Notes under the pieces: generated by a model | What the model saw: only the letters and a program-made list of their open reading frames with translations | What the model was told of the DNA's origin: nothing | The model's database searches: none | Source: Squalus acanthias | Taxonomy: Eukaryota | DNA length: 64,000 bases | Direction: 5' to 3' | NCBI GenBank assembly: GCA_030390025.1 | Contig: CM059432.1 | Span: 38,132,001-38,196,000, forward strand | Position numbers and translations under genes: made by a program | Shown: piece after piece, positions 41,590-42,719 of the stretch | How the letters are laid out: each line of letters opens with the position of its first letter | Position numbering within the stretch: the first letter of the stretch is position 1

Positions 41590-41975
41590 ATCTCTAAGCA
41601 AGCAAAGTTATGAAGGCCAGAAACCAAAGTACCAGCGAAGTTAGGATGAGTAGCCAAAACTACCTGACACAGCGTTGACTCAATGCAGAAGTCTCTCTTT
41701 CTCTCTCTCCGAATCTCTCTCTCTCAGAACGAGTGGTGCAAAAATGTCCACCACAGAGAAAGACAGGAAGAGGCCCCCTTTAAATAGCGCCACCCCCCAG
41801 CCCCACAGCGAATGATAGCGTTCCACTCTACCGGTCGTTGGATGTGCCAGGCGGTAAGGATGGGGGCGCCATGAAATTCTGCTCCGGGGCGCCACAAGGG
41901 CGTTGCACTCTCGTATGACGTCACAATCTGCGCGCGCAAGAGATCGCGGCGATAAAGTTTAGCGCCGCCGCAAGT

Positions 41976-42048
41976 GCCTTCTTAGCGCAGTAGGCAGCGC
42001 GTCAGTCTCATAATCTGAAGGTCCTGAGTTCAATCCTCAGAGAAGGCA
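41976..42048 (+). tRNA. tRNA-Met (CAT, elongator type), probably a retrocopy
   Basis: 73 nt; acceptor stem GCCTTCT/AGAAGGC, anticodon loop CTCATAA, T-loop TTCAATC; matches recalled vertebrate tRNA-Met. Confidence 0.93.
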
Positions 42049-42102
42049 TCGATTCTTGCAAAGCTGTGTTTCCCTTCTCTCCTCTCAGCTTTCCATTTTT
42101 AA

Positions 42103-42521
42103 GGCAACACGGTGGCATAGTGGTTAGCACTGGTGCCTCACAGCGCCAGAGACCCGGGTTCGAATCTGACCTCGGGTGACTGTCTGTGTGGAGTTTGCAC
42201 ATTCTCCCCGTGTCTGCGTGGGTTTCCTCCGGGTGCTCCGGTTTCCTCCCACAGTCCAAAAATGTGTGGGTTAGGTTGATTTGGCTATGATAAATTGACC
42301 CTTAGTGTTAGGGGGGATTAAATATGTGGGGTTATGGGGATAGGATGGGATATGTTAGGGGGAATTAAATACGTGGGGTTACGGGGGTAGGGTGGGATAT
42401 GTGTACTGTGGGGATTAAAGCAGGGACAGGGTACTGGATTTGGATGATCAGCCATGATCGTATTGAATGGCGGAGCAGGCTCGACGGGCCGAATGGCCTA
42501 CTCCTGCTCCTAGTTTCTATG
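42103..42521 (+). mobile_element. HE1-like V-SINE fused behind the tRNA trailer
   Basis: A/B boxes, V-domain, CR1-type 3' stem-loop and tail. Confidence 0.88.
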
Positions 42522-42719
42522 TCTAGTTAAGTTCCCGAGCGGCGCAAACATCGCTGCGCCCGGGCGCTAGCTGCTTAGCGCCCTCTTAAGGCGCTAACGG
42601 GAGGCGCAACCAACTGAATTTTTCCCCCATAGTGTTAAAAACAATTTATTCAATAAAGTTAACAATCTTTTTAGAAAATTGACTTTCTACATAGACAGTA
42701 AGCGAAGGAAGAAGCTAAA

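What the first reader, a model, noticed from the sequence alone, without database searches (positions are those of the whole stretch)
41972..42530. Chimeric retro-insertion: pre-tRNA-Met with 3' trailer fused to a full V-SINE, inside a DNA transposon
Seen: sister copies read GCCGCAAAATGTCTAG uninterrupted (48419-48436). Here that site holds a few leader bases, an intact tRNA-Met without CCA, about 50 nt of trailer ending in TTTTT, then a complete HE1-like SINE whose tail merges with the target ATGT. Known: LINE RT template switching makes chimeras such as U6-L1, and HE1 shares its tail with HER1 LINEs. Inference: RT switched from SINE RNA to an unprocessed pre-tRNA, or copied a Pol III readthrough transcript. 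The result is a potentially functional tRNA gene with its own terminator, now cargo of a Harbinger, and possibly a nascent dimeric SINE.
Basis: partly seen in the sequence, partly recalled or inferred. Interest (0 to 1): 0.75.

Follow-up and report, generated by a model that had tools for sequence, protein, structure and literature searches.

The report
SINEs that capture unprocessed tRNAs
A single-copy insertion joins an unprocessed methionine tRNA, matching a tandem tRNA array elsewhere in the genome, head-to-tail to a full short repeat (SINE); it was likely made when a copying enzyme jumped from one RNA to the other, and 22 similar one-off fusions in this genome would be raw material for new two-part SINEs.

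Summary
Observation confirmed. 41970-42100 matches 130/131 bases of the tRNA-Met gene in a 1,235-bp tandem tRNA array (184 copies of tRNA end plus trailer). The match runs from 6 nt of leader to exactly a T5 terminator. Two foreign bases and a full young SINE follow, all inside a Harbinger. The fusion is single-copy and the array has no SINE, so it is neither a SINE family nor a read-through copy. Genome-wide, 23 such tRNA+SINE units were found among 13,077 SINE heads (about 15 tRNA types; 6 keep an intron-sized insert; none ends in CCA). Short repeats flank the whole unit in 17 of 24 tested (control rate 0.24), the SINE alone in 4 of 24 (0.18). Best reading: the LINE reverse transcriptase finished the SINE and jumped onto a pre-tRNA's oligo-U end (0.8). 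This is a variant of known U6/SINE and tRNA/L1 chimeras. Eight of 23 have no T4 left and would transcribe as dimers; none was seen amplified. The window copy keeps its terminator and is 1 of 184, so 'nascent dimeric SINE' and 'Harbinger cargo' are unsupported. The scan noted pre-tRNA/LINE fusions before, in this and other genomes.

The parts
38969..42628 (.). Harbinger-type DNA transposon copy (host); terminal inverted repeats, ATA target duplication at 38966-38968 and 42629-42631
   Evidence: ends, sisters; DDE_Tnp_4 on minus strand 40630-41604; Myb_DNA-bind_5 on plus strand 39320-39547
41970..41975 (+). tRNA leader, 2-6 nt; the first 4 nt are shared with the target (microhomology)
   Evidence: array match starts at 41970
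41976..42048 (+). tRNA-Met(CAT), no CCA, identical to the array gene
42049..42100 (+). 3' trailer of the array gene, ending at the second T5 run; T>G at 42068 breaks the first T5 run
42101..42102 (+). AA linker, in neither the array (continues GC) nor the SINE majority 5' end (GGG); likely non-templated
42103..42522 (+). full-length young tRNA-headed SINE (HE1-like by recall); tail shared with LINE 3' ends; last 4 nt shared with target
   Evidence: 13,077 exact heads in the genome
48420..48435 (+). empty site in a sister non-autonomous element
51692..53297 (+). 3' part of an RT-encoding LINE whose tail matches the SINE tail (candidate partner family; CR1 clade by recall)
   Evidence: RVT_1 E 1.2e-34

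Best explanation
This is a single-copy fusion of an unprocessed tRNA-Met copy to a full SINE, likely made in one retrotransposition event in which the partner LINE's reverse transcriptase copied the SINE RNA to its 5' end and then jumped onto the oligo-U 3' end of a pre-tRNA. Shown: the tRNA part matches a tandem-array gene from its leader to a terminator; the array has no SINE; the junction is unique; the host element reads through the site in sister copies; 22 other units of the same build exist. Inferred steps: (1) priming at the target through the shared ATGT tail microhomology; (2) copying of the 420-nt SINE; (3) addition of non-templated bases (the AA linker); (4) jump to the 3' end of a nuclear pre-tRNA-Met that had ended at the second T5, possibly from a gene variant lacking the first; (5) joining at the left through GCAA microhomology, with loss of one target base. 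Likely result at this locus: a redundant tRNA gene copy that stops at its own T5, a dead end as a SINE. In the class, capture often leaves fewer than four T's, which would give terminator-free tRNA-SINE dimers.
For: Source: 130/131 match to array units, 41970-42100; 184 copies of tRNA end plus trailer including the window; junction once in G000. Class: six pattern searches (11, 3, 4, 44, 28, 22 hits, overlapping, all examined) gave 27 loci with a tRNA or tRNA 3' piece up to about 100 nt upstream of a SINE head. 23 end in T2-T11 plus 0-4 nt at the SINE's first base. 21 of the 23 are full tRNAs by Rfam. Three of the searches did not ask for a T-run, and none of their 94 hits showed tRNA-CCA-SINE. 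6 of 23 are 89-94 nt long, i.e. keep an intron-sized insert; three of these match array genes across it. Sources traced for 7 others start 0-7 nt upstream of the copied tRNA part and end in a T-run, e.g. L097: 183/184 over a 6-nt leader and a 92-nt trailer that ends at the first T4. One event: direct repeat around the whole unit >=4 nt in 17 of 24 (mismatched pairs 0.24; P 1.6e-6), >=5 nt in 9 of 24 (0.08); around the SINE alone 4 of 24 (0.18); plain SINEs 13 of 25. The flanks are contiguous in other repeat copies for 9 of 24, including the window. Biochemistry: a non-LTR RT adds non-templated bases and jumps to RNA 3' ends (10.1101/2021.04.30.442027, passages).
Against: The window unit itself has no target duplication, so single-event status here rests on flank continuity and on the class. 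15 of 24 had no contiguous homolog in my small database (untested rather than refuted). 3 of 27 loci look like plain SINE insertions into a tRNA gene's trailer (L132, L174 by SINE-only repeats; L212 by eye) and L159 is unresolved. L178 runs past a T5 and a T4, and L068 past a T6, so ends are not always the first terminator. The terminator-breaking variant is found nowhere else in the assembly. TTTT just upstream of SINE heads is not enriched over AAAA (313 vs 411 matches). 5 of 23 have no linker, and the GT linker of the Ile units could be templated by the source. All searches were anchored on intact SINE heads and a T-loop motif, so truncated partners and tRNAs cut 3' of the T-loop were invisible.
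Confidence: 0.8

Rival explanations
1. The two RNAs were ligated first (RtcB-type, as shown for U6/L1) and the chimeric RNA was then retrotransposed.
For: Same orientation, junction at a U-run, one insertion; 5 of 23 junctions have no extra base. RtcB ligation precedes U6/L1 retrotransposition (PMC6789731, abstract).
Against: RtcB needs a 2',3'-cyclic phosphate and a 5'-OH and gave 0 of 26 full-length products with a 5'-triphosphate partner (PMC6789731 section 7). Here the partner starts at its first base, and primary Pol III RNAs have 5'-triphosphate and 3'-OH ends (own knowledge). 18 of 23 junctions carry 1-4 extra bases.
Confidence: 0.08
2. Two independent insertions: a pre-tRNA retrocopy and a SINE landed next to each other at different times.
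For: No target duplication brackets the window unit. SINE insertions into tRNA trailers do occur (L132, L174, L212).
Against: No repeat brackets the SINE alone here either. The host continues right after the SINE tail, with 1 nt lost. No free-standing Met pre-tRNA copy was found ending at either terminator. The class-level test favours one unit.
Confidence: 0.06
3. A piece of tRNA-array DNA was patched into the break during repair of the SINE insertion (DNA-level capture; the nearest array copies are about 0.7 Mb away on the same contig).
For: 4-nt microhomology at the left junction; array copies on C8 at 36.0 and 37.45-37.48 Mb; retained introns fit DNA as well as pre-tRNA.
Against: Both ends coincide with a Pol III transcription unit (leader <=6 nt, terminator) in a 1,235-bp repeat unit, always in the SINE's orientation by design of the search. 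The same holds for sources on other contigs than their copies.
Confidence: 0.04
4. A Pol III read-through transcript from a locus where the SINE already lay behind the tRNA gene was retrotransposed (possible master of a dimeric SINE).
For: Read-through of T5 is seen in L178.
Against: The junction exists once. The array unit has no SINE. The four Ile units differ in leader, trailer or linker.
Confidence: 0.02

Closest known systems
U6/SINE and U6/LINE chimeric retrocopies (U6-Mon1 in platypus, U6-AnolisSINE2 in Anolis, U6-L1/L2/RTE, one unresolved U6-CR1); PMC4476161, passages read
   Same: U-ended Pol III RNA joined in sense to the 5' side of a SINE moved by a stringent LINE; short (1-9 bp) target duplications; single copies; template switching proposed.
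   Different: The acceptor here is pre-tRNA of about 15 types. No U6 was found in front of an intact head of this SINE (1 motif hit, not U6). The paper says switching may be restricted to U6/U6atac in human. Most captured tRNAs here are full length (21 of 23).
tRNA/LINE-1 chimeras of primates; 10.1101/2025.02.02.635956, passages read
   Same: tRNA fused to a retroposon within one target duplication; 21 loci.
   Different: Those are mostly tRNA halves in antisense (twin priming proposed). These are whole precursors with leader, trailer and intron-sized inserts, in sense, on a SINE.
Pre-tRNA retropseudogenes of human (Schmitz et al. 2004; seen only as cited in PMC4476161)
   Same: Unprocessed nuclear tRNA used as an RT template.
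   Different: As cited they are L1-mediated; no fusion to a SINE is mentioned in the passage read.
HE1 SINE / HER1 LINE of sharks and rays (table in PMC3747384, passage)
   Same: tRNA-headed SINE sharing its 3' tail with an RT-encoding LINE.
   Different: Identity with HE1 and the V domain rest on recall; the defining paper is not held. Two tail types share this head.
Composite or dimeric SINEs made by head addition (SINEU, PMC4494074, passages)
   Same: Template switch proposed to add a small-RNA head to an existing SINE.
   Different: Those are amplified families with master copies. These look like independent single events, which that paper sets apart from true families.

Membership tests
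Chimeric retrocopy (small RNA / retroposon) | 5' part is a cellular RNA copy whose ends are RNA ends, with a separate source gene | tested here: met
Chimeric retrocopy (small RNA / retroposon) | Both parts in the same orientation and directly joined | tested here: met
   T5 + AA + SINE 5' end
Chimeric retrocopy (small RNA / retroposon) | One target duplication or one interrupted target around both parts | tested here: inconclusive
   Window: interrupted target met, no duplication. Class: 17 of 24.
Chimeric retrocopy (small RNA / retroposon) | Join made by the RT rather than by RNA ligation | not testable with these tools
   Indirect only: linkers in 18 of 23; RtcB end chemistry
Dimeric SINE family | Multiple dispersed copies with the same junction | tested here: not met
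   1 copy
Dimeric SINE family | No Pol III terminator between the monomers | tested here: not met
   T5 at 42096-42100; met in 8 of the other 22 units
HE1 / V-SINE | 3' tail shared with a partner LINE | tested here: met
HE1 / V-SINE | Conserved central V domain | not tested
   No reference sequence at hand; paper not held; label is recalled
PIF/Harbinger transposon (host) | DDE_Tnp_4 transposase plus Myb/SANT gene, terminal inverted repeats, 3-bp duplication | tested here: met
Transposon-borne cargo gene | Captured part moves with the element (copies at other sites) | tested here: not met
   junction occurs once
Functional tRNA gene | Transcribed and processed from this locus | not testable with these tools
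   Sequence intact; no expression evidence

The most novel reading that the evidence does not exclude
In this genome the partner LINE's RT routinely (at least 0.18% of intact-head SINE insertions) jumps from a finished SINE onto nuclear pre-tRNAs rather than U6. Because the RNA end carries fewer U's than the gene's T-run, the jump often deletes the terminator (8 of 23 units have no T4). This would directly yield transcribable, mobilisable tRNA-SINE dimers: the birth step of composite SINEs caught in many independent copies. The units would also record real pre-tRNA 5' and 3' ends, and a fixed 97-nt SINE-head RNA would act as a second acceptor.
Probability: 0.55. Interest if true: 0.6.

Novelty: new variant of a known kind. 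Interest (0 to 1): 0.45.

Why it matters
Template switching onto tRNA has long been proposed as the way SINEs gain new heads, but the intermediates usually reported are U6 chimeras or tRNA halves. Here a countable set of young, single-event pre-tRNA+SINE units has traceable source genes. A third of them lack an internal terminator, so the proposal becomes testable: are they transcribed as dimers, and does the RT make them in vitro? They also give a fossil read-out of Pol III start sites, stop sites and read-through, and they will be miscalled as tRNA genes in annotation. The window locus alone is a modest, probably inert example.

Tried and rejected
New SINE family: rejected, junction single-copy. 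Source gene carrying the terminator-breaking variant: not found (1 match, the window; absent from 94 trailer readings in overlapping array loci). If the change arose after insertion, the chance that one substitution among 131 bases hits the 3 central T's is about 2%, which hints at a lost or unassembled variant gene; read-through (L178) makes the variant unnecessary. Met precursors captured at the first terminator: none (2 hits, both array T6 variants). T-run enrichment upstream of SINE heads as a genome-wide signal: none (313 vs 411); only 1 of 20 such loci scanned held a tRNA. Most pattern hits were not tRNAs: other repeat heads, SINE-head dimers or chance. Dropped before the repeat test: L142 (no tail) and L159 (unclear start); L212 was found later and is not in it. 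L069's tRNA identity (Lys 3' piece) is by recall only, with no Rfam hit. U6 in front of an intact SINE head: none (exact-match search). Public runs hold parts of the stretch, but no read-level result was obtained, so presence/absence in other individuals and assembly support are open. Literature searches listed no paper on pre-tRNA/SINE chimeras in cartilaginous fish; most subscription papers (Ogiwara 1999/2002, Schmitz 2004, Buzdin/Gogvadze) are not held and no supplements were read. PMC13343379, PMC5499810 and PMC6887750 (passages) gave nothing on these chimeras.

Full report
Observation. The window is G000:C8:38132001-38196000 of a 3.7-Gb genome; a shark or ray is my inference from recalled repeat types, not a tool result. 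It holds one tRNA, Met(CAT) at 41976-42048. A 52-nt trailer ending in T5, the bases AA and a SINE at 42103-42522 follow. The SINE is 99% identical to another copy in the window and differs at 5 columns, one of them in the flank, from the majority of 26 copies. Its majority 5' end is GGGCAAC, so it is full length. Its tail matches LINE 3' ends in the window, one of which ends a 503-aa RVT_1 frame. Four sister elements cross the site without a break. One target base is lost, there is no duplication, and both junctions have 4-nt microhomology. The host is a Harbinger-type element with inverted ends, an ATA duplication, a DDE_Tnp_4 transposase and a Myb piece.

Source. 41970-42100 matches 130 of 131 bases of a gene in a 1,235-bp tandem array that also carries tRNA-Arg(ACG) and tRNA-Ala. 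The tRNA end plus trailer occurs 184 times including the window; the first 100 places listed are arrays, apart from the window. The match begins 6 nt upstream of the tRNA and stops at the last T of the second T5 run; the array goes on differently and holds no SINE. The one mismatch breaks the first T5 run, which would let Pol III run on to the second. That variant and the trailer-SINE junction each occur once in the assembly. Looser searches for copies leaving the array at either terminator found only array variants and the window.

The class. Six pattern searches for a T-loop motif upstream of the SINE head (with a T-run; 49, 53, 70 without) returned 11, 3, 4, 44, 28 and 22 overlapping hits, all examined. 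27 loci had a tRNA or tRNA 3' piece upstream. 23, the window included, join a T2-T11 run through 0-4 extra bases to the SINE's first base; 3 look like plain SINE insertions into a tRNA trailer (L132, L174, L212) and 1 is unclear (L159). 21 of the 23 are full tRNAs by Rfam; 2 are 3' pieces. About 15 gene types are involved; none ends in CCA; 6 keep an intron-sized insert. Against 13,077 exact heads this is at least 0.18%. None of the 23 has a second tRNA in its locus, whereas L174 does. Sources were traced for 7 others, from four searches and one locus already held. They start 0-7 nt upstream of the copied tRNA part and end in T-runs; L097 follows its array gene for 183 of 184 bases, to the first T4 at 92 nt. 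Against a strict rule, L178 passes a T5 and a T4 and L068 a T6.

One event or two. In 24 loci (26 less L142 and L159; the two counter-cases L132 and L174 kept in), a direct repeat of >=4 nt brackets the whole unit in 17 (mismatched pairs 0.24, P 1.6e-6) and of >=5 nt in 9 (0.08, P 5e-5). It brackets the SINE alone in 4 (0.18, P 0.65). Plain SINEs give 13 of 25. In 9 of 24 the flank before the tRNA and the flank after the SINE are contiguous in other repeat copies; the other 15 had no such homolog in the 0.6 Mb I held. The window is among the 9 but has no repeat. A T-run upstream of SINE heads is not enriched overall (313 vs 411), so the class is a small minority of such sites.

Mechanism. Shown: RNA-like ends, separate sources, joint insertion at class level, single copies. 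Inferred: the partner RT primes at the tail microhomology, copies the SINE, adds a few bases and engages the 3' end of a nuclear pre-tRNA. The R2 RT does add bases and jump to RNA 3' ends in vitro (10.1101/2021.04.30.442027, passages). RtcB ligation, shown for U6/L1, needs a cyclic phosphate and a 5'-OH (PMC6789731, abstract and section 7), which fits poorly with a full-length SINE and with extra bases in 18 of 23 junctions; some GT linkers may be templated. The search design hides truncated SINE partners and tRNAs cut 3' of the T-loop, so the absence of mature tRNA is only partly tested.

Consequences. The window tRNA is intact and keeps its T5, so it would at most add one to 184 copies and should stop before the SINE; expression is untested. 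No movement with the Harbinger is seen. In 8 of 23 units no T4 is left anywhere, and the SINE body has none. These would be read as tRNA-SINE dimers with a LINE-type tail; none was seen amplified, and the four Ile units differ from each other.

Known kinds. Closest are U6/Mon-1 and U6/AnolisSINE2 chimeras (PMC4476161, passages) and primate tRNA/L1 chimeras, mostly antisense halves (10.1101/2025.02.02.635956, passages). Human pre-tRNA retropseudogenes are known (Schmitz 2004, as cited only). Head addition by template switch is proposed for SINEU (PMC4494074, passages). No U6 was found before an intact head of this SINE, though a U6/LINE-tail chimera exists (L244). Seven searches listed no report of pre-tRNA/SINE chimeras in this group; the library lacks most subscription papers. 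Earlier notes of this scan describe pre-tRNA fused to CR1 or Tx1 LINE tails in this and other genomes; they are unchecked leads and I did not test their loci.

Verdict. Real and well explained: a new variant of chimeric retrocopies, with a full SINE as donor and pre-tRNA as acceptor. The locus itself is probably inert; the class is of moderate interest. Interest 0.45.

Noticed in passing
L131, L135, L136, L139, L140, L143, L147, L151, L152 (e.g. G000:C5:59822024, C7:114070932): Nine SINE-head dimers: the SINE's own first 97 nt (99 in one) joined through varying linkers to a full SINE; two more end at nt 114-116 (L160, L169). The fixed end suggests a discrete short SINE-derived RNA used as an acceptor.
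   Followed up: partly
L246:642-869 minus (G000:C17:68357462 region): Apparent triple chimera: 5'-shortened U6, then a full 5S rRNA ending in T4, then the 3' end and UTR of a ferritin mRNA (Rfam; ferritin E 5e-11). Target duplication not checked.
   Followed up: partly
L244:529-770 (G000:C13:66044428): Full U6 joined directly to the last ~130 nt of the LINE tail shared with the SINE; L245 may be a second U6/LINE case.
   Followed up: partly
G000:C50, C462, C463, C8:36.0 and 37.45-37.48 Mb; C26:40.5-41.3 Mb; C889; C2450; C295/C48/C18; C13:59.9-60.4 Mb: Large homogeneous tandem arrays of tRNA genes (periods about 1,235, 1,623, 1,695, 1,638 and 1,808 bp) and a U6 gene cluster. The Met array unit also holds what looks like a decayed fourth tRNA.
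   Followed up: no
L064, L065, L067, L068, L122 versus window 42103-42522: The same SINE head occurs with two different tails (TTTCTATG-type and GATTCTGT-type repeats), pointing to two partner LINEs; both form pre-tRNA chimeras.
   Followed up: partly
window 39687-39908: 54-bp tandem repeat of about 4 copies inside the Harbinger's Myb-gene region.
   Followed up: no
window 4958-5982, 47656-48551, 54181-55077, 62292-63145: Four short non-autonomous relatives of the Harbinger in the same 64 kb, with ATA or ATG duplications where both ends were read.
   Followed up: partly
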